NCBI GenBank assembly: GCA_041650935.1
Contig: JBAZKH010000007.1
Location: forward strand, 41,471-105,470
DNA length: 64,000 bases
Source: Candidatus Omnitrophota bacterium
Lineage (GTDB): Bacteria > Omnitrophota > Gorgyraeia > 2-01-FULL-45-10
Reading direction: 5' to 3'
The notes beneath the pieces were generated by a model. The model made no database searches. It saw only the letters and a list, made by a program, of their open reading frames with translations, and was not told the origin of the DNA. This document shows positions 1 through 46,233 of the stretch, one piece after another (the first letter of the stretch is position 1; every line of letters begins with the position of its first letter). A program made the translations under genes and the position numbers.

Positions 1-1
1 G

Positions 2-874
2 CTTCGGCTCAGCAAGGACTTGATGTCGGAATTTCCTGACATGAAGGGTTTTTCCAAGCGGAATCTTGAGCTTATCAGGCAATGGCACTTGTTTTACAGC
101 CAAATTGCGAAACAAGCTGTTTCGCAATTGCCGCTTGAACAAATTACCCAAATTCCGTGGGGTCACAATATCGCCATAATTGCCAAATGTAAAGATATTA
201 AGGAAGCTCTCTATTATGTTCAGAATACTATTACGCACAACTGGAGCAGAAATGTGCTTGTTCATCAGATAGAGAGTGCTTTGTATAGGCGTGAAGGTAG
301 GGCGGTCACTAATTTTCCATTAACGCTTCCTAAACCGCAATCCGATCTTGCCCGGCAGACTTTAAAGGATCCGTATGTTTTCGATTTTCTAAGCATGTCC
401 GATGATTATAATGAGCGCGATCTTGAGAAGGGGCTTACCGTTCATCTGACAAATTTTCTTCTAGAGTTAGGCGCCGGCTTTTCGTTTATCGGCAGGCAGG
501 TTTCTGTTCAGGTCGGAACCAAGGAATTTTTTATAGATCTGCTCTTTTATCATACCCGTTTGCATTGCTATATAGTGGTTGAGTTGAAAACAGGCGATTT
601 TGAGCCGGCCTACGCGGGTCAGCTTAATTTTTATATTAAAGCGGTGGATAGTCAACTACGCAAAAATGACGACCATCCGACTATTGGTCTTCTTCTTTGC
701 AAAAGTCGCGAAAAATTAGTCGCCGAATACGCCTTAAGCGATATCCATAAACCTATCGGCGTCTCCGAATATAAATTAACTCACTCGTTGCCAAAGAAAC
801 TGAAATCGAGCCTTCCAACGATTAAGGAGATCGAGAAAGAACTAAGTAAGGGCATCGGTAAAGCAAAGAAATAA
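2..874 (+). CDS. PDDEXK nuclease, YhcG/DUF1016 family (5' end runs off the window)
   Basis: Reading frame is open to the window edge. Motifs GFSKRNLELIRQWHLFY and FIDLLFYH...YIVVELKTG (D-x-ExK core) match DUF1016. Confidence 0.6.
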   Translation, partial: LRLSKDLMSEFPDMKGFSKRNLELIRQWHLFYSQIAKQAVSQLPLEQITQIPWGHNIAIIAKCKDIKEALYYVQNTITHNWSRNVLVHQIESALYRREGRAVTNFPLTLPKPQSDLARQTLKDPYVFDFLSMSDDYNERDLEKGLTVHLTNFLLELGAGFSFIGRQVSVQVGTKEFFIDLLFYHTRLHCYIVVELKTGDFEPAYAGQLNFYIKAVDSQLRKNDDHPTIGLLLCKSREKLVAEYALSDIHKPIGVSEYKLTHSLPKKLKSSLPTIKEIEKELSKGIGKAKK

Positions 875-907
875 AAACCATATAGTATTTAAAAGCGGAA
901 AGAAAAG

Positions 908-2122
908 ATGGCTGAAGATGTGGTTTTGACAGAGAAAGACGAGGCGAAGCTGGCGGAAAATGCCGCGAGATTAGCCGAAGAATGGTATAGGGGCGACTTT
1001 GAAGTAAATCATTATGATTATCGCGTATGCACCACTTCCGATGGTTTAGTCCAACTATGTAAAGAAGATCATAAAGTCAAGGTTACTCCTTCAGAAATTG
1101 AGGATATGTGCAAGCTGGACTTATTGGAGTATATTCTGGATGAGAAGGACGAAAAGAAGATGCTCCCGCAATTTATAGCTGATAGGGTGGTATTCATAAA
1201 GAAATTACAGACAAAATTTAATTATTCAACTCCGAGACTACAGCAGATTATAGCATATGAGAATGAATTACTGCCCTATTCAAACGAGGCATGCGGTTTC
1301 TATTACACAGACAGGCAGAATATGTATCCATGGGTGGTTAAAAGGGTAAGATTGGCCGCGGAAGGAATCGTAGATTATTTGCGAGATTTGAATGTGCTTA
1401 CCGAAAGATACGATAATGATGCGAAAATGCAGAAACGCAAGTTATTTACGGATAAGATGATTAAAATATTTGAAGAAGATTTAGCTTATCGTAAAAAGTT
1501 CCTCGCCCATCTATCAAAAAGAGGATGGGCCGATTTATCGGAAGACGAGAAGCGAGCGGTGAAAATATCTGCTTTTGAAACGCAATCTTCCGATGAGATC
1601 GAACGAAAATTATCCGTAAGGCATTATTATGACAAGATGCTGGGTGGATATAGCCCACAGGTAGAGTTCAAGGATCAGGAGATGAGTGTCGGAAAATTAG
1701 AGTTTGGGATGATCGACTGGGCCGAAACGATGGAGTCGGTTCAGGAATATAATAAGTTCATAGACTTTTTCAGGACGCCGTACTTCTCAATCGAAATTAA
1801 TGGGCCAGAAATACCTATCAAGATAACCGATCCCCAACAGGTTAGCGCCCCGTTAATGCGTACAATAGAGAAAATTTATACGATAATGAAGGGCCGGCTG
1901 GGGCGTAAAAGAAAGAGTTGGGGAGAAAATTCCGGAAGAAGGCTATTGATACGTAAACGCGATGAGGAGATGAAGAAGCTTTACGCAAATTGGCGCAAAG
2001 CAACTCCTAATGTGGGAAGCAACATACTGATCGACCGGTTGTGCGAGTATACTAAAAAAGTAGGCACTCCAGTTTCATCCATAGAAAGGATTAAGAGAAT
2101 CATTTATACGAAGAAGAAATAA
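908..2122 (+). CDS. hypothetical protein (404 aa), probable cargo of the mobile element
   Basis: Long ORF with a GGAAAG ribosome-binding site and a hairpin plus T7 terminator downstream. No domain recognised by eye. Confidence 0.5.
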   Translation: MAEDVVLTEKDEAKLAENAARLAEEWYRGDFEVNHYDYRVCTTSDGLVQLCKEDHKVKVTPSEIEDMCKLDLLEYILDEKDEKKMLPQFIADRVVFIKKLQTKFNYSTPRLQQIIAYENELLPYSNEACGFYYTDRQNMYPWVVKRVRLAAEGIVDYLRDLNVLTERYDNDAKMQKRKLFTDKMIKIFEEDLAYRKKFLAHLSKRGWADLSEDEKRAVKISAFETQSSDEIERKLSVRHYYDKMLGGYSPQVEFKDQEMSVGKLEFGMIDWAETMESVQEYNKFIDFFRTPYFSIEINGPEIPIKITDPQQVSAPLMRTIEKIYTIMKGRLGRKRKSWGENSGRRLLIRKRDEEMKKLYANWRKATPNVGSNILIDRLCEYTKKVGTPVSSIERIKRIIYTKKK

Positions 2123-2212
2123 GCCGTAAACGCCTGCATCTATTCTCGACATATGCGAATTCAGATGCTGTAGTTCGCGGCCTATTAAATTAGGGCGTTT
2201 TAAGATATATTT

Positions 2213-2247
2213 CCCTGTAGGAACGAAAAACCTACAGGGATTTTTTT
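2213..2247 (+). terminator. intrinsic terminator (CCCTGTAGG / CCTACAGGG stem followed by T7)
   Basis: Perfect 9-bp stem with a 9-nt loop and a T7 run. The run ends 1 nt before the ATG of the next gene. Confidence 0.5.
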
Positions 2248-2586
2248 ATGACAAAAGGCGAGATAAAGATGAGACGGGTAAAAGTGGATGAAGTGGTATT
2301 CTATCCTATACGGCCCACCGAAAAGGGGCTGATCGGGTTTGCCTCGTGCTTATTCGACGGCCGTCTTTCCTTAAATAGCATCGCCATCTACACGCGTCCT
2401 GACGGAAAGGGCTACAGGCTTCTCTTCCCTCTAAAGCGGCTTCCGAATAGTAGAGATGTAAACATCTTTTACCCTGTTAACAATGAAACTTATGAACTCA
2501 TAAAAGAGGCGGTTGTGAAAAAGATAGAAGAACTAGCAGAAAAAGTGAAAGAAAGAGGCGGATATGAAGAATACGGAACATTATGA
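2248..2586 (+). CDS. SpoVG-like nucleic-acid-binding protein
   Basis: N-terminus MTKGEIKMRRV aligns with SpoVG MEVTDVRLRRV. The conserved pattern G.i.fAS..D..f.v..I.i...G..fp.kR.P.....i..P.N...r..I..AV is retained. Confidence 0.55.
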   Translation: MTKGEIKMRRVKVDEVVFYPIRPTEKGLIGFASCLFDGRLSLNSIAIYTRPDGKGYRLLFPLKRLPNSRDVNIFYPVNNETYELIKEAVVKKIEELAEKVKERGGYEEYGTL

Positions 2587-2634
2587 TTTTAGAAGCGTTA
2601 TCGATGATGTAAGGACAGCGAAGGGAGCGGATGA

Positions 2635-4272
2635 ATGATGGTCGCCACCCTCTTGCCACAACACCTTGAAGACTTCAGGAAATCCGGCATAACGGATGCG
2701 TCGGTTGCAAAATATGATATTTCGTCCGTAAGTCAAGGTGAGGCATCCGAGGCGCTTGGATTTAGGCCGCTGAGCGGTGGGTGGGCCCTCCGATATCCGG
2801 GCTCGGAATTCTTTAAGTTTAAGCCGGATACGCCGTTTAATAAAGAGACGAAGTATCTATCACCAAAAGATACGACGCAGGAGCTATTCGTAACGCATCT
2901 TGCGTCCGGCGCTCACGATGATACATCGGAGCCATATTATTTCTGCGAGGGTGAGAAGAAGTGCCTCGCGTTGGAGCAGGCCGGATACGCGGCCATAGGC
3001 GTATCGGGCGTATGGAATTGGAAATCAAGAGGCCATATCAATGAGTACTTGAGCCAGATCAATCTGATGGGCCGAGAGTGCTACATAATCTTTGATAGCG
3101 ACAAATGTTTTAACGGTCATGTGAAAACTGCGGAAAAGAGATTTGCCGAGGCGCTTACTTCTCTTGGTGCGAAGGTGAAGATTGTTAATCTTGATCCTGA
3201 ATTCGGCAAAGGAGCCGATGATCAGCTATTGCGTCTCGGAATAGCTGATTTTCGATACTATATCGATGAGGCACAAGATTACGGCCCGGGCCTTAAATAT
3301 GAGATTCCGCAATTACCTCCCGTTTCACTGCCTCAATTTTTAGCCAAAGACATACCGCCGGTAGAATATTATGTCCGCGGCCTACTTTCAAAACAGGGTA
3401 AGACCATGATCTCTGCTCAGGCGAACATCGGTAAATCCCTATTTGTTCAAAATCTCTCAATTGCCATAGCTTTGGGCAAGGCAAAGGCATTAGATAAATT
3501 CGATGTTACGCACGCGAAGGTCCTGTATTTGGATCTTGAGATGGGCGAGTCTGCGCTGATGCAGCGTTACCAAATTTTATGTAAAGACGAACCGACAAAG
3601 GCACCGGACCTATTCGTCAAATATATCCCAGCTCCTGATTTTCTTGATAGGGAGTTTCAAGCTACTCTGGAGAATTGGCTGACCACACGCAGTATCAACG
3701 TGCTTATCATCGATCCGCTCGGCAATGCTTGGTCAGGTGATGAGAACGATAAGCAAGAAGTCGGACAGCTGACAGCATATCTCAATACGCTGATCGCTAA
3801 GCATCAGATATCGATTCTGGCAGTGCATCACTGGCGCAAGGCCTCGAAGGATTTTAAGGCAGGCGGTGAGATGGCCGCCGGTAGCTACAAATGGGCCGCA
3901 TGGCTTGATTATCATGTGACGCTGGCCGGTGCGCCGGATAGCATAACCATAACCTGCGAAAAAAGCCGGCATGGTATGAGATTTAAGCCATTTCTGGCGA
4001 AAATCAATACCAATACTCTGCAATTCGAATATCTTACCGATTTTGAGAAGAAATTCACCCAAGACACACTGGCTCAGCTATTCGATGACTTCAGAGCCGA
4101 CCGAGTGTCCATTCCCGGCCTGATAAACCACGCCAAGGAAAAGAAATCCGGCTCTGAAAAAACCATAAGGAAACTTATAGCCGAAAGCGCCGCATTCGAG
4201 ATCGACAAGACGGGCAAAACTCATTATTTAGTCAAAAAACAGGGGTTATTCGATGAAACAGACCTCACTTAA
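2635..4272 (+). CDS. primase-helicase of a mobile element (N-terminal TOPRIM/DUF3854-like, C-terminal RepA-like AAA_25 P-loop)
   Basis: YYFCEGEKKCLALEQAGYAAIGVSG and IIFDSD (TOPRIM). AQANIGKS (Walker A) and VLIIDPLGN (Walker B). Confidence 0.7.
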   Translation: MMVATLLPQHLEDFRKSGITDASVAKYDISSVSQGEASEALGFRPLSGGWALRYPGSEFFKFKPDTPFNKETKYLSPKDTTQELFVTHLASGAHDDTSEPYYFCEGEKKCLALEQAGYAAIGVSGVWNWKSRGHINEYLSQINLMGRECYIIFDSDKCFNGHVKTAEKRFAEALTSLGAKVKIVNLDPEFGKGADDQLLRLGIADFRYYIDEAQDYGPGLKYEIPQLPPVSLPQFLAKDIPPVEYYVRGLLSKQGKTMISAQANIGKSLFVQNLSIAIALGKAKALDKFDVTHAKVLYLDLEMGESALMQRYQILCKDEPTKAPDLFVKYIPAPDFLDREFQATLENWLTTRSINVLIIDPLGNAWSGDENDKQEVGQLTAYLNTLIAKHQISILAVHHWRKASKDFKAGGEMAAGSYKWAAWLDYHVTLAGAPDSITITCEKSRHGMRFKPFLAKINTNTLQFEYLTDFEKKFTQDTLAQLFDDFRADRVSIPGLINHAKEKKSGSEKTIRKLIAESAAFEIDKTGKTHYLVKKQGLFDETDLT

Positions 4273-4384
4273 TCATGGCATCGTGGTAATCGCCCTTATT
4301 GGCACAATGTTGTATTCGGGATTGCCGATGTTGGCAATCGTAGTAAAAGGGGTATTGGTATGATTTCCCATGTAAAACGTATTT

Positions 4385-4424
4385 GTGCAAGAATAACGCA
4401 CCATAAAGTGCGGTATTCTTGCAC
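4385..4424. promoter_or_regulatory. 17-bp near-perfect inverted repeat (GTGCAAGAATAACGCAC n6 GTGCGGTATTCTTGCAC), candidate operator/ori element
   Basis: 16 of 17 positions are complementary. It lies in the primase-xis spacer together with CGTGGTAAT direct repeats and ATCGTGGT/ACCACGAT inverted repeats. Confidence 0.35.
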
Positions 4425-4505
4425 CGATACTGTCGATCGTGGCATTGTGGTAATGGTATATAAGACGGGGACGATTGTTTACCACGATTTTGGCGAGGGC
4501 CAGCC

Positions 4506-4685
4506 ATGACAAAATTGCTCTCGCCTCAAGAATTGTCAGACGTTTTAAGTATAAGCATCGAGACCGTCTATGCGTGGACGTCTCAGAAGAGGATCCCATA
4601 CATCAAGATGGGCAGGCTTGTCCGGTTCAATGCGGATGAGGTGAATAAGTGGCTCGAAAGGCAGAGGGTGGAGGCACAGGAATGA
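4506..4685 (+). CDS. AlpA/Xis-family helix-turn-helix protein (59 aa; below the ORF-track size cutoff)
   Basis: ATG..TGA ORF translating to MTKLLSPQELSDVLSISIETVYAWTSQKRIPYIKMGRLVRFNADEVNKWLERQRVEAQE (AlpA/excisionase HTH pattern). It lies immediately upstream of the integrase. Confidence 0.6.
   Translation: MTKLLSPQELSDVLSISIETVYAWTSQKRIPYIKMGRLVRFNADEVNKWLERQRVEAQE
4641..4671 (+). repeat. 31-bp direct repeat copy 1 (3' end of the xis-like gene)
   Basis: GTGAATAAGTGGCTCGAAAGGCAGAGGGTGG. It is 30/31 identical to 4976-5006. Confidence 0.7.
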
Positions 4686-4692
4686 GATTGCT

Positions 4693-4965
4693 TTGGCCGC
4701 TTCGCGGCCTCGCAATGACGGGGAAAAATGGGACAGTCCCAATCAGCAGATTTGTTCTGCGATACTGAGGTTTCTGGCGATACTGATGTTTTGCAAACAA
4801 AAGGGGGTGGGTATGAAGAAGGGGTGGAATAAGGCATTTAAAAGAATACTGGCTCAAGCCGACCAGGAGCTTAAAGAGTTTGAGCGGAGCTGGGATGCCA
4901 CGCTTCAAAGGCTGGCGGACGAGTGGAATAAGGTAGCCGATGCAAGAGATAAAGAAGGGCGTTGA
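4693..4965 (+). CDS. hypothetical small protein (possibly a diverged xis paralog; start uncertain)
   Basis: The ORF C-terminus RLADEWNKVADARDKEGR parallels xis ADEVNKWLERQR. Weak. Confidence 0.25.
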   Translation: MAASRPRNDGEKWDSPNQQICSAILRFLAILMFCKQKGVGMKKGWNKAFKRILAQADQELKEFERSWDATLQRLADEWNKVADARDKEGR

Positions 4966-4975
4966 TAGTTAAATC

Positions 4976-5006
4976 GTGAATAAGTGGCTCGAAAGACAGA
5001 GGGTGG
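4976..5006 (+). repeat. 31-bp direct repeat copy 2
   Basis: GTGAATAAGTGGCTCGAAAGACAGAGGGTGG. It would encode VNKWLERQRV if read in frame (a xis 3' remnant). Confidence 0.7.
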
Positions 5007-5024
5007 CGCCGGGCGATTAACTAC

Positions 5025-5054
5025 TTGCCAACCCTCACAAAATATGGCTATATA
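5025..5054 (+). promoter_or_regulatory. sigma70-like promoter for int (TTGCCA n18 TATATA)
   Basis: The -10 box ends 8 nt before the ATG, implying a leaderless or very short leader. Confidence 0.35.
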
Positions 5055-5062
5055 CCAACACT

Positions 5063-6133
5063 ATGATATATAAACGGGGCAAAATCTGGTACATAGGGTT
5101 TTCCGTTAACGGACGCTTGATACGAGAAGCGGTCGGAGAGTCGCGGAAATTCGCCGAGCTCGTCCTTGGCAAGAAACGGGCCGAGGTAAGAGAGGGGCGT
5201 TTCCTTGATGTCAAGAAACACGCGAAGATCAGGTTTGAAGATTTTGCGGATGAGTACTTAGAGACGCACTCTAAGCTCAAAAAATCATATTATACAGACT
5301 GTAAAATCGCGGGGCTTCTTAAAAAGTTTTTCGGCGGGAAGTGTCTGCATGAAATAACCTCATTAGATATCGAAAAGTTTAAGACAAGCCGTATCAAAGA
5401 AGTCAAACCTGCAACGGTAAATAGGGCCTTAGCGGTCCTGAAATCGATGTTCAATAAAGCTATTGCATGGGGCAAGGCCGATAGCAATCCCTTTAAGGCA
5501 GTTAAATTGTTTAAAGAAAACAATCAAAGACTACGCTTCCTTGAGCGAGAGGACATTCCCAAGCTACTAGCCAATTGCTGTTTGCATCTTAAACCGATAG
5601 TGATATTAGCCCTAAATACCGGCATGAGAAAGGGAGAGATCCTGGGCCTCAAATGGCATAATATAGACTTCAAAAGAGATACGATCCATTTGCATGATAC
5701 TAAAAGCGGAGAGGGCAGAGATGTGCCTCTTAACGCTGCGGCCAAGAAGGCTTTGATAGCGGTTCCGAAGCATCCAGGCTCACCATATATATTTAATGAT
5801 AACAATGGTAATAATTACGGGGATATAAAGAAATCTTTCTTGACCGCCGTGAAAAAATCGGATATAATTGACTTTCACTTTCACGATCTTAGGCACACAT
5901 TCGCGTCACAGCTTGTTATGGCCGGAGTGGATTTGAATACTGTCAGGGAGTTGTTAGGTCATAAGAGCATCGAAATGACATTGAGATATTCTCATCTGTC
6001 CCCGGATCATAAAAAGCGGGCGGTCGATGTGTTAGGCGGGCGAATTAGCACAAATATAGCACAAACGCCCGCGGTTGACGACACGGAAAAATTGGCAGTG
6101 TCGCAACTCATTGAAAATACGGTAGTTACGTAG
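5063..6133 (+). CDS. int: tyrosine recombinase / phage-type integrase
   Basis: N-terminal SAM-like domain. C-terminal HDLRHTFAS...LLGHKSIEMTLRYSHL catalytic motifs (R..HxxR..Y). Confidence 0.85.
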   Translation: MIYKRGKIWYIGFSVNGRLIREAVGESRKFAELVLGKKRAEVREGRFLDVKKHAKIRFEDFADEYLETHSKLKKSYYTDCKIAGLLKKFFGGKCLHEITSLDIEKFKTSRIKEVKPATVNRALAVLKSMFNKAIAWGKADSNPFKAVKLFKENNQRLRFLEREDIPKLLANCCLHLKPIVILALNTGMRKGEILGLKWHNIDFKRDTIHLHDTKSGEGRDVPLNAAAKKALIAVPKHPGSPYIFNDNNGNNYGDIKKSFLTAVKKSDIIDFHFHDLRHTFASQLVMAGVDLNTVRELLGHKSIEMTLRYSHLSPDHKKRAVDVLGGRISTNIAQTPAVDDTEKLAVSQLIENTVVT

Positions 6134-6136
6134 TTT

Positions 6137-6212
6137 GCCCGCATAGCTCAATTGGCAGAGCAGGACACTCTTAATGTCAAGGTTCCAAGTTCGATTCTTG
6201 GTGCGGGCACCA
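6137..6212 (+). tRNA. tRNA-Lys (anticodon CTT)
   Basis: Cloverleaf folded by hand: acceptor GCCCGCA/TGCGGGC, D stem GCTC/GAGC, anticodon loop CTCTTAA, T stem CCAAG/CTTGG, encoded CCA. Confidence 0.85.
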
Positions 6213-6310: not shown

Positions 6311-6385
6311 GCGGCGGTAATTCAGTGGTAGAATGCGACCTTGCCAAGGTCGATGTCGTGGGTTCGAAACCCATCCGCCGCTCCA
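6311..6385 (+). tRNA. tRNA-Gly (anticodon GCC)
   Basis: Acceptor GCGGCGG/CCGCCGC, anticodon stem CGACC/GGTCG, loop TTGCCAA, T loop TTCGAAA, encoded CCA. Confidence 0.85.
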
Positions 6386-6884: not shown

Positions 6885-6977
6885 CCCGGCACCTTCTTAA
6901 AATAGGGATTTATTAGAATGTGCTCGATGGTTAGGATGTAATATTTGAACATATACATAATTAAGGAAGGTGCCGGG
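6885..6977 (+). promoter_or_regulatory. 12-bp perfect inverted repeat (CCCGGCACCTTC ... GAAGGTGCCGGG) bracketing the ptsN-yvcK spacer
   Basis: The 3' arm contains the AGGAAGG ribosome-binding site and the GTG start of the next gene. Pairing would sequester them. Confidence 0.3.
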
Positions 6978-8514: not shown

Positions 8515-10281
8515 ATGATTAAAAAGAAAGAAATAGTGTTAAAAGGTATTCCGGCATCACCGGGCATTACTACGGGTAAGGCGTTCCTGTATGGCCGGGA
8601 GCAGTACACTATTCCCCGGCGCACCGTGGGAGACCTTCAGATACAGAATGAAATAAAGCGCTTCAAAGATGCCCTTATCCAGACCAAGAACGAGATACAG
8701 GAGATAAAGCGGCACATTTCGGATGAGATGGGGGCGGAGCATGGACAGATATTCAGCGCGCATCTCCTGGTAATCGACGACAGCATGCTGATCGAAGAGG
8801 TCATATCCAGGCTTAAGCGGGAGAAGCTGTCGATCGAGTATATATTCCAGGATGTCCTGCGCAGGTATATAAAAGTATTTTCCGAAATGGACGATGAATA
8901 CCTGAAGGAGCGCATCAGCGATGTGAACGATGTCGGGCGCAGGATACTGAAGAACCTTATAGGCGCCAAAGAGGACATCCTCTCGAACCTGAAAGAGAAA
9001 GTCATCGTCATTGCTTATGATCTTTCTCCCTCCGACACCGCTACGATGCACAAGAAGAATGTCATCGCCTTCGCTACGGATATAGGCGGCAGGACCTCGC
9101 ATACCGCTATAATGGCAAAGTCGCTGGAGATACCCGCCGTCGTCGGCTTGGAGGGCGCGACAAAGAAGGTCGAGACCGGTGATATCATAATAGTGGATGG
9201 CACGCATGGGACGGTGATAATCAATCCGTCCGCCGCAACGATCAAAAAATACGAAAAGGATAAGATAAAATTTGCCGAGGTTGAAAAACACCTCCTGGAA
9301 CTCAAAAACCTGCCGTGCGTTACCCTCGACGGTAAGAATATCGAATTATCCGCTAATATCGAAGTTCCCGAAGACGTCCCTTCCGTTATAGCGCATGGCG
9401 CGACGGGCATAGGGTTATACCGCACCGAATACTTTTACATGAACCGGAAAGACCTGCCGTCCGAAGAAGAGCAGTTCAAGGCTTATTCCGCCGTTGCCAA
9501 AAAAGTGAAGCCGCATTCGGTAATTATAAGGACACTCGATATCGGCGGAGATAAATTCCTGTCACAGCTGGAAGTGCCGCAGCAGATGAACCCGTTCCTT
9601 GGATGGCGGGCGATACGGTTCTGCCTTGCCAGGCCCGATATATTCAGGGCCCAGCTCAGGGCGATAGTAAGGGCGTCGTTTTATGGCAAGCTCAAGGTTA
9701 TGTATCCTATGATATCGGGGCTCGAGGAGTTGAGGCAGGCAAATGCATTATTAGAGGAAGTGCAGAAAGAGCTCAAGAAAGAGGGCGTCCCGTTCGATGA
9801 AGAGATGGAAGTGGGCGCGATGATCGAAGTTCCGTCTGCCGCCCTGACGAGTGACATACTTGCCAAAGAGGTAGACTTCTTCTCCATAGGTACCAACGAC
9901 CTTATCCAGTATGCGCTTGCCGTCGACAGGGTTAATGAGAAGATAGCGTATCTTTACGAGCCGGCCCATCCGGCGGTATTGCGTCTCATCAAGAACGTCA
10001 TAGAGAGCGGTCATAATGCCGGCATATGGATCGGTATGTGCGGCGAGATGGCGGGCGATATAGCTATGACCATAGTGCTCCTGGGCCTGGGCCTCGATGA
10101 ATTCAGCACCTCTCCCATAGCGATACCGGAGATAAAGCGCATAATAAGGTCCGTGACGCTCCGCCAGGCGAAGGAGATAGCTCAGGGAGCCATAAGCCTT
10201 TCTACCGGCAAGGATGTAGAAAAGTTTGCCAAGAAGAAACTGACCGAGATAGTGCCCGATCTTGCCATAGAAATAGGATAA
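8515..10281 (+). CDS. ptsI: phosphoenolpyruvate-protein phosphotransferase (Enzyme I)
   Basis: GGRTSHTAIMA phosphohistidine region and a PEP-utilising C-terminal domain. Confidence 0.9.
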   Translation: MIKKKEIVLKGIPASPGITTGKAFLYGREQYTIPRRTVGDLQIQNEIKRFKDALIQTKNEIQEIKRHISDEMGAEHGQIFSAHLLVIDDSMLIEEVISRLKREKLSIEYIFQDVLRRYIKVFSEMDDEYLKERISDVNDVGRRILKNLIGAKEDILSNLKEKVIVIAYDLSPSDTATMHKKNVIAFATDIGGRTSHTAIMAKSLEIPAVVGLEGATKKVETGDIIIVDGTHGTVIINPSAATIKKYEKDKIKFAEVEKHLLELKNLPCVTLDGKNIELSANIEVPEDVPSVIAHGATGIGLYRTEYFYMNRKDLPSEEEQFKAYSAVAKKVKPHSVIIRTLDIGGDKFLSQLEVPQQMNPFLGWRAIRFCLARPDIFRAQLRAIVRASFYGKLKVMYPMISGLEELRQANALLEEVQKELKKEGVPFDEEMEVGAMIEVPSAALTSDILAKEVDFFSIGTNDLIQYALAVDRVNEKIAYLYEPAHPAVLRLIKNVIESGHNAGIWIGMCGEMAGDIAMTIVLLGLGLDEFSTSPIAIPEIKRIIRSVTLRQAKEIAQGAISLSTGKDVEKFAKKKLTEIVPDLAIEIG

Positions 10282-11040: not shown

Positions 11041-12213
11041 ATGACGAAGCATAAATATCTTTTTACATCGGAGAGCGTGACCGAGGGTCACCCCGATAAA
11101 GTTTGCGACCAGGTATCGGATGGCGTTCTTGACGAAGTCTTAAGGCAGGACCCTGCCGGCCGCGTTGCCTGCGAGACATACGTAACGATGGGCCTTATAA
11201 TAATAGGCGGAGAGATAACGACGACCGCTTATGTGGATATCCATAAATTATGCAGGGAGATATTGAAGGATATAGGATATATCCATCCAAAATACGGTTT
11301 CGATTACCATACCTGCGCCATATTGAACGCAATACACACGCAATCTCCGGATATCGCGCTAGGTGTGGATAAGGGCGGGGCAGGCGATCAGGGGATGATG
11401 ATGGGTTATGCCTGTAACGAAACCCCGGAGCTCATGCCCCTGCCGATCATGCTTTCGCACAGGCTATGCAGAAAACTGGCCGAATTGAGGAAAAATAACA
11501 TATTGAAGTATCTCGGCCCTGATGGGAAATCACAAGTGACGGTCGAATATCACGACAACAAGCCGGCAAGAGTGACATCGGTAGTCCTGGCGTCGCAGCA
11601 TACCGAAGATGTAGTGGATAAAAAGACCGATACGCTTTCGGACAAAGCCCGCAATGAGATCATAGAGAAGGTTGCGAAACCTATCCTGAAAGATTACATC
11701 GATAACGAGACCAAGTTTTATATCAACCAGACAGGCAAGTTCGTCATAGGCGGACCTCAGTCGGATACCGGCATGACGGGCCGCAAGATAATAGTCGATA
11801 CGTATGGCGGGACGATCTCGCATGGAGGCGGTGCTTTCTCAGGTAAAGATCCCACGAAGGTGGACCGTTCGGCGGCATATATGGGCAGATATATCGCAAA
11901 GAACCTGGTAGCCGCAGGCATCGCGGACCGCCTGATGGTTCAGCTGGCGTATGTCATAGGCAAGGCCGAACCGGTATCGATGATGGTCAATACTTACGGC
12001 ACCGGCAAACTTTCGGACGACAAAATAGTAAAGGTCATAAGAGATAATTTCGAATTGACGCCGCACGGGATGATCGCGGAGCTGAAATTACGCGAATCAG
12101 ACGGTAAAAGATACAGACAGACGGCGGCATACGGCCATTTCGGCAGAGCCGGGGATGCGTTTACCTGGGAAGCGACGGATATGGCGAAGGGACTTAAAAA
12201 ATACCTTAAATAG
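11041..12213 (+). CDS. metK: S-adenosylmethionine synthetase
   Basis: [20 protein letters not shown] and [19 protein letters not shown] motifs. Confidence 0.95.
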
Positions 12214-46043: not shown

Positions 46044-46117
46044 TGGTGGAGCTGACGAGAATCGAACTCGTGATTACACAATGCCATTGTGTCGTGATCC
46101 CTCTTCACTACAGCCCC
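46044..46117 (-). tRNA. tRNA-Ala (anticodon GGC)
   Basis: The reverse complement folds as acceptor GGGGCTG/CAGCTCC, D stem GTGA/TCAC, anticodon stem ACACA/TGTGT, loop ATGGCAT, T loop TTCGATT, CCA. Confidence 0.8.
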
Positions 46118-46146
46118 ATATTCAAATAGTATTATAGCACAAAAAC

Positions 46147-46233
46147 TGGTGCCGAGGGAGGGAGTTGAACCCTCATATCCGTGAGGAAATCGGTTTTTGA
46201 GACCGACGCGTATGCCAGTTCCGCCACCTCGGC
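46147..46233 (-). tRNA. tRNA-Leu (anticodon CAA), type II with a long variable arm
   Basis: The reverse complement folds as acceptor GCCGAGG/CCTCGGC, anticodon stem TCGGT/ACCGA, loop CTCAAAA, long variable arm, T stem GAGGG/CCCTC, CCA. Confidence 0.8.

What the first reader, a model, noticed from the sequence alone, without database searches (positions are those of the whole stretch)
2..6212. Integrated mobile element (satellite/PICI-like or mobilisable island) ending at tRNA-Lys
In order: a PDDEXK nuclease (YhcG/DUF1016, truncated by the window), a 404-aa orphan, a SpoVG-like protein, a TOPRIM + RepA-like AAA primase-helicase, a 230-bp repeat-rich spacer, an AlpA/Xis-type HTH, and a tyrosine integrase whose stop is 3 nt before tRNA-Lys(CTT). 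This gene set matches an integrase/AlpA/primase-replicase element. The left boundary lies outside the window. The element lies on the 5' side of the tRNA rather than the usual 3' side, so the true att partner may be a tRNA or repeat upstream of the window, or the tRNA may be carried by the element itself.
Basis: partly seen in the sequence, partly recalled or inferred. Interest (0 to 1): 0.6.

Follow-up and report, generated by a model that had tools for sequence, protein, structure and literature searches.

The report
Integrative island replacing tRNA-Lys front half
The first 6.2 kb of the window is the integrase end of a mobile DNA island that inserts into a lysine tRNA gene the unusual way round, supplying the gene's front half rather than its back half, and dozens of related integrases do the same.

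Summary
In detail: the gene order, the repeat-rich spacer, and an integrase stop codon 3 nt before tRNA-Lys(CTT). It is the integrase-proximal end of an integrative element, but nothing supports a phage satellite.

The 5'-side position is the design of the family. Only tRNA positions 1-38 (window 6137-6174) are shared between the element contig (L001), the empty chromosomal site (L003) and the window. Five related genomes keep tRNA-Arg/Leu/Lys/Gly-ptsN with no integrase.

Among 80 relatives, 35 have the integrase stop abutting position 1 of a co-oriented tRNA. Five of these have a displaced tRNA 1->37-43 repeat 4-10 kb upstream. 28 more distant relatives show the classical layout with 3'-part repeats.

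The family's att sites carry tandem 8-mer pairs at 11-nt spacing on both arms, one pair inside the integrase 3' coding region (window 6046-6064).

Unresolved: no attL or cognate second arm lies within 15 kb to the left. That DNA is low-GC and chromosome-like, and the source contig equals two other contigs joined at the 38-nt core. So this is either a large (>=48 kb) island or an assembly chimera at the tRNA.

5'-part tRNA integration is known but rare; a coherent bacterial clade doing it appears undescribed.

The parts
2..874 (+). YhcG/DUF1016 PDDEXK nuclease, truncated by the window (352 aa in L001). Cargo; a candidate defence gene.
   Evidence: Pfam YhcG_C E = 5.8e-65. PADLOC PDC-S02 E = 6.5e-152. 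No homologue in any of 80 related loci.
908..2122 (+). 404-aa protein of a very small uncharacterised family, with a possible weak MerR-like HTH near the N-terminus.
   Evidence: No hit in Pfam, PHROGs, NCBIfam, PADLOC or PDB. 62 representatives in 1.84 billion. The family profile gives only weak MerR-family matches, E 0.006-0.5.
2248..2586 (+). SpoVG-like small protein; part of the conserved backbone.
   Evidence: Pfam SpoVG 26.8 bits, below the 29.6 cut-off. Homologues sit at the same place in L007, L013, L016, L023 and L028; those in L016 and L023 pass the cut-off.
2635..4272 (+). DUF3854 (TOPRIM-like) + AAA_25 (RepA/DnaB-like) primase-helicase; presumed replication protein.
   Evidence: Pfam and PHROG hits. 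57 % homologue in L028. Functional analogue Prim-Pol+DUF5906 in L023.
4273..4505 (.). Repeat-rich intergenic spacer: about 4 copies of (A)TCGTGGTAA around a 23-nt-arm palindrome (4379-4430). Candidate operator or origin.
   Evidence: the repeat finder. DNA fold -19 kcal/mol, z = -6.2.
4506..4685 (+). HTH_17 / excisionase-family DNA-binding protein (Xis/AlpA-like).
   Evidence: Pfam HTH_17 E = 8.4e-14. TIGR01764 55.3 bits against a cut-off of 28.8. Conserved immediately upstream of int in almost all relatives.
4672..5006 (+). 335-nt segment absent from the close relative L008. It contains a 90-aa ORF (4693-4965) and is bracketed by a 31-nt duplication of the HTH gene's 3' end (4641-4671 and 4976-5006).
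   Evidence: Direct repeat D5, 97 % identical. Pairwise alignment with L008. Mostly missing in L086 as well.
5063..6133 (+). Tyrosine integrase. N-terminal arm-binding-type domain (about aa 1-62), core-binding domain, and catalytic domain with R189, K214, H274, R277, H300 and Y309 invariant.
   Evidence: Pfam Phage_integrase E = 2.5e-34 and Int_N. Invariant columns in the 37-sequence alignment. NJ tree.
5840..5868 (+). Near-consensus sigma-70-type promoter-like site (TTGACC-N17-TATAAT) inside int, pointing at the tRNA. Candidate element-borne promoter for the rebuilt tRNA.
   Evidence: 11/12 match. At the homologous position, >=9/12 in 15 of 32 5'-polarity loci (all in the window's subclade) and in 0 of 26 classical loci. 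Function is inferred.
6046..6064 (+). Tandem pair TAGCACAA-N3-TAGCACAA (11-nt spacing) inside the int 3' coding region. Arm-type (P-arm) recombinase binding sites.
   Evidence: Only tandem occurrence in the window and in L001. The same architecture is perfect (8/8) in 27 of 38 relatives, against 1 % of control windows. It is mirrored by a second pair inside attL in bounded relatives.
6137..6174 (+). att core / identity block: tRNA-Lys positions 1-38 (5' end through the anticodon loop). This is the element-borne copy that now forms the 5' part of the functional tRNA.
   Evidence: It is the only block shared by the window, L001, L086 and L003.
6137..6212 (+). tRNA-Lys(CTT), a hybrid gene: 5' part from the element, and 3' part (6175-6212) plus everything downstream from the chromosome.
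   Evidence: ARAGORN. Rfam 66.5 bits. L003 is 100 % identical from the tRNA onward for 10.7 kb.

Best explanation
Window 1-6174 is the integrase-proximal (right) end of an integrative genetic element. It belongs to a clade of lambda-type tyrosine integrases that recombine with the 5' part of tRNA genes.

The element carries a copy of tRNA-Lys(CTT) positions 1-38 directly after its integrase gene. Recombination with the chromosomal tRNA-Lys takes place in or next to the 7-nt anticodon loop (inferred from where identity ends). This puts the element upstream of the gene, so the functional tRNA is a hybrid: element-borne 5' part, chromosomal 3' part.

The window junction is therefore an attR-type junction.

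The integrase is modular. Its N-terminal domain, and/or the adjacent excisionase-type HTH protein, reads tandem 8-mer arm sites. One pair lies inside the integrase's own 3' coding sequence (6046-6064). A second, identical pair is expected about 120 nt inside the far end (attL). The core-binding and catalytic domains read the tRNA-derived core.

Integration cuts the tRNA off from its native upstream region, so the element must supply transcription. A near-consensus promoter inside int (5840-5868), conserved only in this subclade, is the candidate. This step is inferred.

The primase-helicase, the SpoVG-like protein and the repeat-rich spacer would replicate the excised circle (inferred). YhcG (PDC-S02) is defence-type cargo.

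This copy has no detectable attL or cognate second arm within 15 kb. The element is therefore either much larger than its 4-10 kb relatives (>=48 kb of low-GC DNA) or truncated on its left.
For: SHOWN
1. Identity block. L001 is 100 % identical to window 1-6174 and then diverges after tRNA position 38. L003 (same sample) is 100 % identical from the tRNA onward but has tRNA-Arg / tRNA-Leu upstream instead of the integrase.
2. The empty site is ancestral. L092, L093, L095, L098/L099 and L101 keep tRNA-Arg(TCG)-Leu(TAG)-Lys(CTT)-Gly(GCC)-ptsN-cofD-HPr-ptsI, with no integrase and with core-like composition on both flanks.
3. Family trait. Of 80 related loci, 35 have the int stop about 0-40 nt (or overlapping) from position 1 of a co-oriented tRNA of many specificities, and 28 have the classical opposite layout.
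4. Displaced halves. L014, L016, L021, L023 and L042 carry repeats of tRNA positions 1->37-43, located 4-10 kb upstream. Classical relatives carry repeats of positions about 30->3' end.
5. The NJ tree gives one clade of about 34 leaves that is purely 5'-polarity and contains the window, with the Lys(CTT) users as a subclade.
6. Arm sites. Tandem 8-mers at 11-nt spacing lie 70-100 nt before the tRNA: perfect in 71 % of loci against 1 % of controls. The word varies between relatives and the two copies fall in different reading frames.
7. In bounded relatives the same word occurs in the whole locus only as a second pair 113-131 nt inside attL. L019 shows this for the window's own word, AGCACAA.
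8. Modularity. The window and L008 share the HTH gene (78-95 % nt), Int aa 1-62 (about 97 %) and the arm word, but differ in the CB/catalytic domains and in the target tRNA.
9. A related integrase (72 %) sits at the same chromosomal locus in an independent NCBI MAG whose two flanks are both core-like (L089).
10. Promoter-like site: >=9/12 in 15/32 5'-polarity loci against 0/26 classical loci.
11. The catalytic residues are invariant.
Against: - No attL. No copy or remnant of tRNA-Lys 1-38 lies in the 15.2 kb left of int. The best match is 21/38, which equals the shuffle level. No second AGCACAA pair is found either.
- In L001 and L086 the integrase + half-tRNA is followed by a Pol-beta NTase/HepT cassette that lacks the cognate arm pair. 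That junction is therefore not a canonical attP.
- The DNA left of the module (ECF transporter, pyruvate kinase, trehalose operon) has GC 0.41 and lies more than 20 SD from the core in tetranucleotide usage. It resembles chromosomes of low-GC Omnitrophota.
- The window's source contig (112,548 nt) equals the L001 contig up to the core (47,603 nt) plus the L003 contig after it (64,932 nt). An inter-genome mis-join at the tRNA cannot be excluded without reads.
- General sigma-70 scoring directly upstream of the tRNAs shows no enrichment over controls.
- The crossover position is inferred from the boundaries of identity. It has not been demonstrated.
Confidence: 0.72

Rival explanations
1. Assembly chimera. 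The 6-kb module and everything to its left belong to a low-GC Omnitrophota genome, in which the element is an old, left-truncated island followed by a half tRNA and a toxin-antitoxin cassette (the arrangement seen in L001 and L086). The DNA from the tRNA's 3' half onward belongs to a different, 50 %-GC genome (L003). The window's contig joined the two at the shared 38-nt tRNA segment.
For: - Contig arithmetic: 47,603 + 64,932 = 112,535, against 112,548.
- The same ENA sample assembles the two halves separately.
- The left flank has GC 0.41 and is compositionally as close to L104 (a low-GC contig) as one genome is to itself (distance 0.128). TreT homologues sit on chromosomal contigs of up to 714 kb with GC 0.37-0.46.
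- The L001-type junction is conserved in a diverged lineage, L086.
- There is no attL and no cognate arm pair.
Against: - The shared repeat is only 38 nt, shorter than the k-mers of the final stages of usual metagenome assemblers (general knowledge, not checked for this assembly).
- An independent MAG (L089), with core-like DNA on both sides, has a 72 % integrase at this very tRNA-Lys. Next to it lies a fragment 90 % identical to a gene 13 kb left of our integrase, so such low-GC DNA does become linked to this locus.
- The window junction has exactly the canonical geometry of 35 other loci.
Confidence: 0.22
2. Large integrative island or episome. The element is real, integrated, and at least 48 kb long. 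Its low-GC, chromosome-like cargo includes an ECF transporter, pyruvate kinase and a trehalose operon. The 6-kb module is its replication/integration end, and attL lies beyond what could be seen. This is a sub-case of the best explanation, concerning extent.
For: - All 15.8 kb of the L001 contig that could be read is compositionally foreign to the core.
- An empty site co-occurs with a 100 % identical right flank.
- 7 of about 12 co-oriented relatives with >=7 kb of upstream sequence also show no attL within reach, so the 4-10 kb sizes are a lower tail set by detection limits.
- A CbiQ-gene fragment is linked to int in L089.
- Large circular integrative elements with housekeeping-like cargo, one of them with a tyrosine-integrase module, are reported in Omnitrophota (bioRxiv 10.64898/2026.05.20.726742).
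Against: - The cargo looks like ordinary chromosome of a low-GC lineage.
- The junction in L001 lacks the cognate P' arm, so L001 cannot simply be the excised form.
- The far end was never observed.
Confidence: 0.4
3. Phage satellite (PICI-like). The island is mobilised by a helper phage.
For: The gene set int / AlpA-like HTH / primase-replicase resembles the PICI backbone. The related bounded elements are small.
Against: - No terminase, capsid, portal or redirection genes. PHROG hits fall only in the integration and DNA-metabolism categories.
- No relatives of the replication protein in IMG/VR and none beyond remote partial hits in 50,697 phage records.
- Cargo in relatives is defence, TA, R-M or metabolic.
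Confidence: 0.03
4. The tRNA-Lys (and tRNA-Gly) are cargo of the element, or the integrase is a resident chromosomal recombinase unrelated to mobility.
For: The integrase and the tRNA are only 3 nt apart and co-oriented. L089 has a diverged integrase at the same locus, and its divergence (about 70 % nt) is similar to that of the core genes.
Against: - The tRNA with an identical 3' half and identical downstream genes exists without the integrase in the same sample and in five related genomes.
- Relatives show flanking direct repeats, and different tRNAs are targeted.
Confidence: 0.03

Closest known systems
[quoted passage not shown] 2019 (PMC6563490).
   Same: The element recombines with the 5'-distal part of a tRNA gene, lies upstream of it, and must restore the 5' part. 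PMC6563490 calls this 'considerably less frequent' than 3'-distal use.
   Different: Those are isolated elements, mostly archaeal. Here it is the fixed trait of a large bacterial integrase clade (Omnitrophota, Planctomycetota, Nitrospirota, Aerophobetes and other MAGs) using at least 11 tRNA specificities. The 2002 paper itself could not be read, so a detailed comparison of its att site rests on memory only.
Classical anticodon-loop class of tRNA-integrating islands and phages with lambda-type integrases (Williams 2002, Nucleic Acids Res 30:866; from memory).
   Same: Tyrosine integrase with arm-type and core-type sites. Identity block ends at the anticodon loop. int lies next to att, with an excisionase-type HTH beside int. 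The more distant relatives in this same family are exactly of this type.
   Different: Here the identity block runs from the anticodon loop to the 5' end of the tRNA, not to the 3' end. The core is inverted relative to the conserved arms.
dusA-associated integrases (PMC4482086).
   Same: Integration into the 5' end of a gene, with the element restoring the displaced 5' part (abstract seen).
   Different: The target there is a protein-coding gene, not a tRNA. No sequence relationship was tested.
PICI / P4-like satellites.
   Same: int - AlpA/Xis-like HTH - primase/helicase backbone next to a tRNA.
   Different: No packaging or capsid-redirection genes, no viral relatives, and opposite polarity at the tRNA.
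Replicative integrative plasmids/elements such as pSAM2-type AICEs (from memory).
   Same: Small elements with int, xis and a replication gene that integrate into tRNA genes and can replicate after excision.
   Different: pSAM2-type elements carry the 3' part of the tRNA. The replication proteins are unrelated, no transfer genes are seen here, and nothing was tested.

Membership tests
Tyrosine recombinase, lambda-Int-type integrase | Catalytic domain with the R-K-H-R-H/W-Y residues | tested here: met
   Pfam Phage_integrase 119 bits against a cut-off of 27.1. R189, K214, H274, R277, H300 and Y309 are invariant in 37 sequences.
Tyrosine recombinase, lambda-Int-type integrase | Separate arm-type binding sites, distant from the core, read by an N-terminal domain | tested here: met
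   Tandem 8-mer pairs occur on both arms at about 95 and 120 nt from the core. The word co-varies with Int aa 1-62 and the HTH protein. Binding itself was not tested.
Classical tRNA-integrating genomic island | The element carries the 3' part of the tRNA, with the displaced fragment being a 3' fragment | tested here: not met
   The identity block is tRNA positions 1-38. Bounded relatives show 5' fragments.
Classical tRNA-integrating genomic island | Empty site in related genomes, plus a compositional shift | tested here: met
   L003, L092, L093, L095, L098 and L101. GC is 0.44 against 0.498.
Classical tRNA-integrating genomic island | Flanking direct repeats (attL and attR) that delimit the element | tested here: not met
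   For this copy, no attL lies within 15.2 kb. The feature is met in five relatives.
Reverse-orientation (5'-part) tRNA integrators | The element lies upstream of and co-oriented with the tRNA, and the identity block covers the tRNA 5' portion | tested here: met
Reverse-orientation (5'-part) tRNA integrators | The element supplies a promoter for the rebuilt tRNA | tested here: inconclusive
   A candidate TTGACC-N17-TATAAT lies inside int and is conserved only in the window's subclade (15/32 against 0/26). No enrichment of promoter-like sites was found immediately upstream of the tRNAs. No transcript data are available.
PICI / phage satellite | Packaging or capsid-redirection genes and dependence on a helper phage | tested here: not met
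   No structural or packaging PHROG hit. No IMG/VR relatives. Helper dependence cannot be tested here.
Excisionase family (TIGR01764) | Score above the curated cut-off, and a position next to int | tested here: met
   55.3 bits against 28.8. Adjacent to int in nearly all relatives.
SpoVG | Pfam/NCBIfam score above the curated cut-off | tested here: not met
   26.8 against 29.6 (Pfam) and 19.7 against 108 (NCBIfam). Homologues in L016 and L023 pass Pfam. 'SpoVG-like' is the fair label.
PADLOC candidate defence system PDC-S02 | Match to the family model | tested here: met
   E = 6.5e-152 over the full length. A defence function has not been tested for this family member.

The most novel reading that the evidence does not exclude
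A large, so far undescribed clade of bacterial tyrosine integrases has permanently inverted its tRNA-derived core between conserved arm sites. Its elements therefore always replace the 5' half of tRNA genes. These elements carry one arm-site pair, and a tRNA-directed promoter, inside the integrase coding sequence itself. In this window such an integrase has joined at least 48 kb of chromosome-like DNA from a low-GC Omnitrophota lineage to the chromosome of a 50 %-GC lineage.
Probability: 0.35. Interest if true: 0.72.

Novelty: new variant of a known kind. Interest (0 to 1): 0.55.

Why it matters
tRNA genes are the commonest landing sites for genomic islands, and the near-universal rule is that the element carries the gene's 3' part. 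Here a whole integrase clade does the opposite, while its nearest relatives follow the rule and share the same arm architecture. That gives a natural matched pair for asking what sets the polarity of integration.

It also shows how an element copes with having to provide a promoter for an essential gene.

Practically, island-finding software that looks only for 3' tRNA fragments downstream of tRNAs will miss or misplace these elements in Omnitrophota, Planctomycetota, Nitrospirota and related MAGs.

The case also shows how a 38-nt att core can be the join point of metagenomic contigs. That matters for judging MAG chimerism.

Tried and rejected
1. Search for attL. Pattern, ungapped and gapped searches for the tRNA-Lys 5' half in the 15 kb left of int found nothing above shuffle level.
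2. Reading L001 as the excised attP form. I held this view for a while and then rejected it, because the cognate AGCACAA arm pair is missing after the core.
3. A small circular form joining HepT to YhcG. Rejected, because the Logan unitig L002 runs from TreT into YhcG without branching.
4. Looking for the reciprocal junction (tRNA-Leu - Lys 1-38 - Pol-beta). No hits in metagenome or viral contigs. That collection evidently lacks the relevant small contigs, so this is uninformative.
5. Walking along the L001 contig. The 32 kb further left were never seen.
6. Using TreT relatives to find an element-free left junction. Synteny is already lost at 80 % nt identity.
7. A sigma-70 promoter immediately upstream of the tRNA. 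No enrichment over controls. The conserved motif there (ATTGA[A/T]AATA...AGTTA) varies at third codon positions, so it is better explained as the integrase's conserved C-terminal tail.
8. Circular contigs among the relatives: none.
9. Rfam: only the two tRNAs.
10. Function of the 404-aa ORF: only weak MerR-like matches.
11. The Zhao & Williams 2002 paper is not held in the library.

Full report
OBSERVATION

- YhcG/DUF1016 nuclease, 20-874, truncated by the window.
- A 404-aa ORF, 908-2122.
- A SpoVG-like ORF, 2248-2586.
- A DUF3854+AAA_25 primase-helicase, 2635-4272.
- A 233-nt spacer.
- An HTH_17 protein, 4506-4685.
- A tyrosine integrase, 5063-6133, whose TAG stop is 3 nt before tRNA-Lys(CTT), 6137-6212.

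Family assignments come from Pfam, PHROGs, NCBIfam and PADLOC.
- The HTH passes the curated excisionase cut-off.
- YhcG matches the candidate defence family PDC-S02 (E = 6.5e-152).
- SpoVG falls just below Pfam's cut-off.

The spacer is repeat-rich: about four copies of (A)TCGTGGTAA and a palindrome with 23-nt arms, fold z = -6.2.

- A 335-nt segment with a 90-aa ORF, bracketed by a 31-nt duplication of the HTH gene's 3' end.
- tRNA-Gly(GCC) at 6311-6385.

Downstream lie ptsN, cofD/yvcK, HPr and ptsI, which are core genes.

THE KEY JUNCTION

Public assemblies hold the same DNA in other contexts.
- Contig L001 (ENA ERZ27247363, 48 kb) is 100 % identical to window 1-6174. It then diverges inside tRNA-Lys, exactly after tRNA position 38 (the 3' edge of the anticodon loop), into a Pol-beta nucleotidyltransferase/HepT pair.
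- Contig L003, from the same sample, is 100 % identical to the window from the tRNA onward for 10.7 kb. Upstream of tRNA-Lys it has tRNA-Leu(TAG) and part of another tRNA, not the integrase.
- A four-way alignment shows that the only block common to all contexts is tRNA positions 1-38, window 6137-6174.
- A diverged variant from another sample (L086, 86-92 % nt) keeps integrase - Lys(1-38, 100 % identical) - Pol-beta, so that arrangement is not an artefact of one assembly.

WHICH FLANK IS ANCESTRAL

Five related genomes with PtsN 89-95 % identical (L092, L093, L095, L098/L099, L101) keep ptsN-cofD-HPr-ptsI. Where the upstream sequence is available, they also keep tRNA-Arg(TCG)-tRNA-Leu(TAG) together with tRNA-Lys(CTT) and tRNA-Gly(GCC). 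None has an integrase, and both flanks have core-like composition.

So L003 is the empty site, and the window's integrase|tRNA junction is derived.

THE 5' SIDE IS A FAMILY TRAIT

The integrase has thousands of homologues. The closest (60-77 %) are mostly from Candidatus Omnitrophota MAGs.

In 80 loci from GTDB genomes:
- 35 have the integrase stop within about 0-40 nt of (or overlapping) position 1 of a co-oriented tRNA. The tRNAs are Lys, Thr, Met, Phe, Pro, Gln, Leu, Arg, Tyr, Ala and Val.
- 28 have the classical convergent layout.
- 17 have no called tRNA, being contig ends or half-tRNAs.

Displaced fragments agree with this.
- Five co-oriented loci carry a direct repeat of tRNA positions 1->37-43, located 4.3-10 kb upstream: L014, L016, L021, L023 and L042.
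- Classical loci carry repeats of positions about 28-33->3' end.

Both classes therefore break identity at the anticodon loop, with opposite polarity.

An NJ tree of 72 integrases gives three zones.
- One clade of about 34 leaves is purely 5'-polarity. It includes the window, with the tRNA-Lys(CTT) users (window, L087, L089, L006, L007, L009) as a subclade.
- One clade is purely classical.
- A mixed zone lies between them, where polarity differs between near neighbours.

ATT-SITE ARCHITECTURE

A tandem 8-mer with 11-nt (rarely 12-nt) spacing lies 70-100 nt upstream of the tRNA, inside the integrase 3' coding region.
- It is perfect in 27 of 38 loci (71 %), against 1 % of 190 control windows. 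It is >=7/8 in 89 %, against 7 %.
- The word differs between relatives: TAGCACAA in the window at 6046 and 6057; elsewhere TGGACAC, TGCAGGAA, TGGATAAC, GTCACAAA.
- The 11-nt spacing puts the two copies in different reading frames, so the constraint is on the DNA.

In bounded relatives the same word occurs in the whole 12-19-kb locus only once more: as a second tandem pair 113-131 nt inside attL.

Classical-polarity relatives have the same two pairs.

The family's attP is therefore [pair] - about 95 nt - [tRNA-derived core] - about 120 nt - [pair]. Polarity is the orientation of the core between conserved arms.

The window and L008 share the HTH gene (78-95 % nt), integrase residues 1-62 (about 97 %) and the arm word. 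They differ in the core-binding and catalytic domains and in the target (Lys against Thr). This is the modularity expected of lambda-type integrases (established knowledge). Which protein binds the 8-mers was not determined.

TRANSCRIPTION OF THE REBUILT tRNA

General sigma-70 scoring just upstream of the tRNAs shows no enrichment. The conserved motif there behaves like a conserved C-terminal peptide of the integrase.

A near-consensus TTGACC-N17-TATAAT lies inside int at 5840-5868. At the homologous position, promoter-like sites of >=9/12 occur in 15 of 32 5'-polarity loci, all in the window's subclade, and in 0 of 26 classical loci.

This is a candidate element-borne promoter. It is an inference.

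WHAT KIND OF ELEMENT

Bounded relatives are small islands.
- L023 (10 kb): SpoVG, Prim-Pol/DUF5906 primase-helicase, HTH, int.
- L016 (6.9 kb): MazF toxin, a C5 methylase, SpoVG, HTH, int.
- L042: an AIPR protein.
- L021: a carbamoyltransferase.

The window's module fits this backbone, with YhcG as defence-type cargo.

There is no sign of a phage or satellite.
- No structural PHROGs.
- No IMG/VR relatives.
- Only remote partial hits in phage and plasmid references.

The 404-aa ORF belongs to a tiny family (62 representatives) and shows only weak MerR-like similarity.

WHAT REMAINS UNRESOLVED: THE LEFT END AND THE REALITY OF THIS PARTICULAR JOIN

- No attL remnant and no second AGCACAA pair exists in the 15.2 kb left of the integrase.
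- The Pol-beta side of L001 also lacks the cognate pair. L001 is therefore not a canonical attP; more likely it is a junction with a neighbouring or decayed insertion. Tandem arrays of half-tRNAs do occur (L019, L034).
- The DNA left of YhcG (ECF transporter, TauE, pyruvate kinase, OtsA/OtsB/TreT) has GC 0.41. Its tetranucleotide distance from the core is 0.33, against 0.100 +/- 0.010 for size-matched core chunks.
- That DNA resembles low-GC Omnitrophota contigs, some certainly chromosomal (up to 714 kb).
- The exact proteins from CbiQ through the integrase lie on one 112,548-nt NCBI/JGI contig. Its length equals the L001 contig up to the core plus the L003 contig after it.

Two readings remain.

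(a) A real recombinant: a large (>=48 kb) low-GC island, or a moved chromosomal segment, integrated at tRNA-Lys. Support:
- The canonical junction geometry.
- The shortness of the shared repeat (38 nt).
- L089, where a 72 % integrase at the same locus of a 50 %-GC genome is flanked by a fragment 90 % identical to a gene 13 kb left of our integrase.
- A preprint reporting large integrative circles with housekeeping-like cargo in this phylum.

(b) An inter-genome chimera at the tRNA. Support:
- The chromosome-like nature of the left flank.
- The contig arithmetic.

I put (a) at roughly 0.65-0.7 and (b) at about 0.2-0.25. Under either reading, the family-level mechanism and the nature of the 6-kb module stand.

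COMPARISON WITH WHAT IS KNOWN

Integration into the 5'-distal part of tRNA genes is documented but rare. PMC6563490 cites Zhao & Williams 2002 and a few archaeal cases.

In the accessible literature I found no description of a coherent bacterial integrase clade with this polarity, of arm sites embedded in the integrase coding sequence for such elements, or of these elements in Omnitrophota. I could not read the 2002 paper, so the claim of novelty is limited to 'new variant of a known kind'.

VERDICT

- Observation: confirmed.
- Interpretation: partly supported. It is an integrative element, but not a satellite.
- The odd 5' position is explained as an inherited reversed-polarity design.
- The extent of this copy is unresolved.
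- Interest: 0.55.

Noticed in passing
window 4641-5020: The last 31 nt of the HTH gene are duplicated 335 nt downstream (4976-5006). The second copy continues as a remnant C-terminus ending at a TAA around 5018-5020. The segment in between, with a 90-aa ORF, is absent from L008 and mostly absent from L086. It looks like an insertion, or the scar of module shuffling between elements.
   Followed up: partly
L089 11078-11369; L101 about 9492-9584: Small footprints lie upstream of tRNA-Lys in related genomes. L089 has two tandem 146-nt units, each starting with tRNA-Lys positions 1-12. L101 has a homologous unit starting with positions 1-14. They suggest a second kind of 5'-side event at this tRNA, with a breakpoint in the D-arm.
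   Followed up: partly
L089 9362-9606 vs L001 1146-1390: An 87-aa ORF next to the HTH-int pair of L089 is a 5'-truncated copy of the last 82 codons of the 416-aa ECF-T (CbiQ-fusion) gene of L001. It is 90 % identical overall, and the first ~100 nt are 100 % identical, whereas the core genes of the two genomes are about 70-73 % identical.
   Followed up: partly
L001 15328-15832; L086 1433-1850; L090 10001-10679: The Pol-beta NTase/HepT toxin-antitoxin pair is highly multi-copy in Omnitrophota: 219 homologues at E<=1e-15, many 85-98 % identical. Similarity between copies starts at the ribosome-binding site, so the cassette itself seems to move. It probably also causes contig breaks.
   Followed up: partly
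L001 15290-15309 (also L086 about 1394-1413): A different tandem pair, GTATGCCT-N4-GTATGCCT, lies 23 nt after the half-tRNA. It is 100 % conserved between L001 and L086 although the neighbouring bases differ. Its function is unknown.
   Followed up: no
L017 1566, L018 9227, L020 2435, L022 2902, L025 16235, L036 1889, L089 11587: Short 3'-terminal tRNA fragments (positions about 53-58 to the 3' end) lie 100-5000 nt downstream of the same tRNAs that carry a 5'-side integrase. These tRNAs are also used, or were used, by classical 3'-end (T-loop class) integrators.
   Followed up: no
L019 5973-6243 and 7607-7878: A tandem array. An integrase with arm word GTCTCAAA is followed by tRNA-Thr(1-38). 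Then comes the left arm (AGCACAA pair) of a second element, a decayed integrase 3' end with another half-tRNA, and a third AGCACAA pair.
   Followed up: partly
L003 about 90-297 and L089 about 11840-11886: A conserved motif, CTCGGGACTGAAA(A)TTT..GAGAAA..TTTCTT, directly abuts the 5' end of several tRNAs (tRNA-Leu in L003, tRNA-Gly in L089). It may be a lineage-specific tRNA upstream or promoter element.
   Followed up: no
NJ tree of integrases: L041-L063 region: In a mixed zone of the tree, 5'-polarity and classical-polarity integrases are nearest neighbours (for example L051/L053, and L054 with L046/L031/L039). Polarity has apparently flipped several times.
   Followed up: no
window 46135-46142: A single copy of the arm word TAGCACAA lies between tRNA-Ala(GGC) and tRNA-Leu(CAA) (46044-46233). 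It is probably chance (3 matches against 0.69 expected in the window).
   Followed up: no
window 6885-6977: An inverted repeat with 35-nt arms (74 % complementary) lies between ptsN and the cofD/yvcK-like gene.
   Followed up: no
L090 1-9875: A 3706-aa HEAT-repeat protein lies next to the chromosomal Pol-beta/HepT paralogue in another Omnitrophota genome from the same sample.
   Followed up: no
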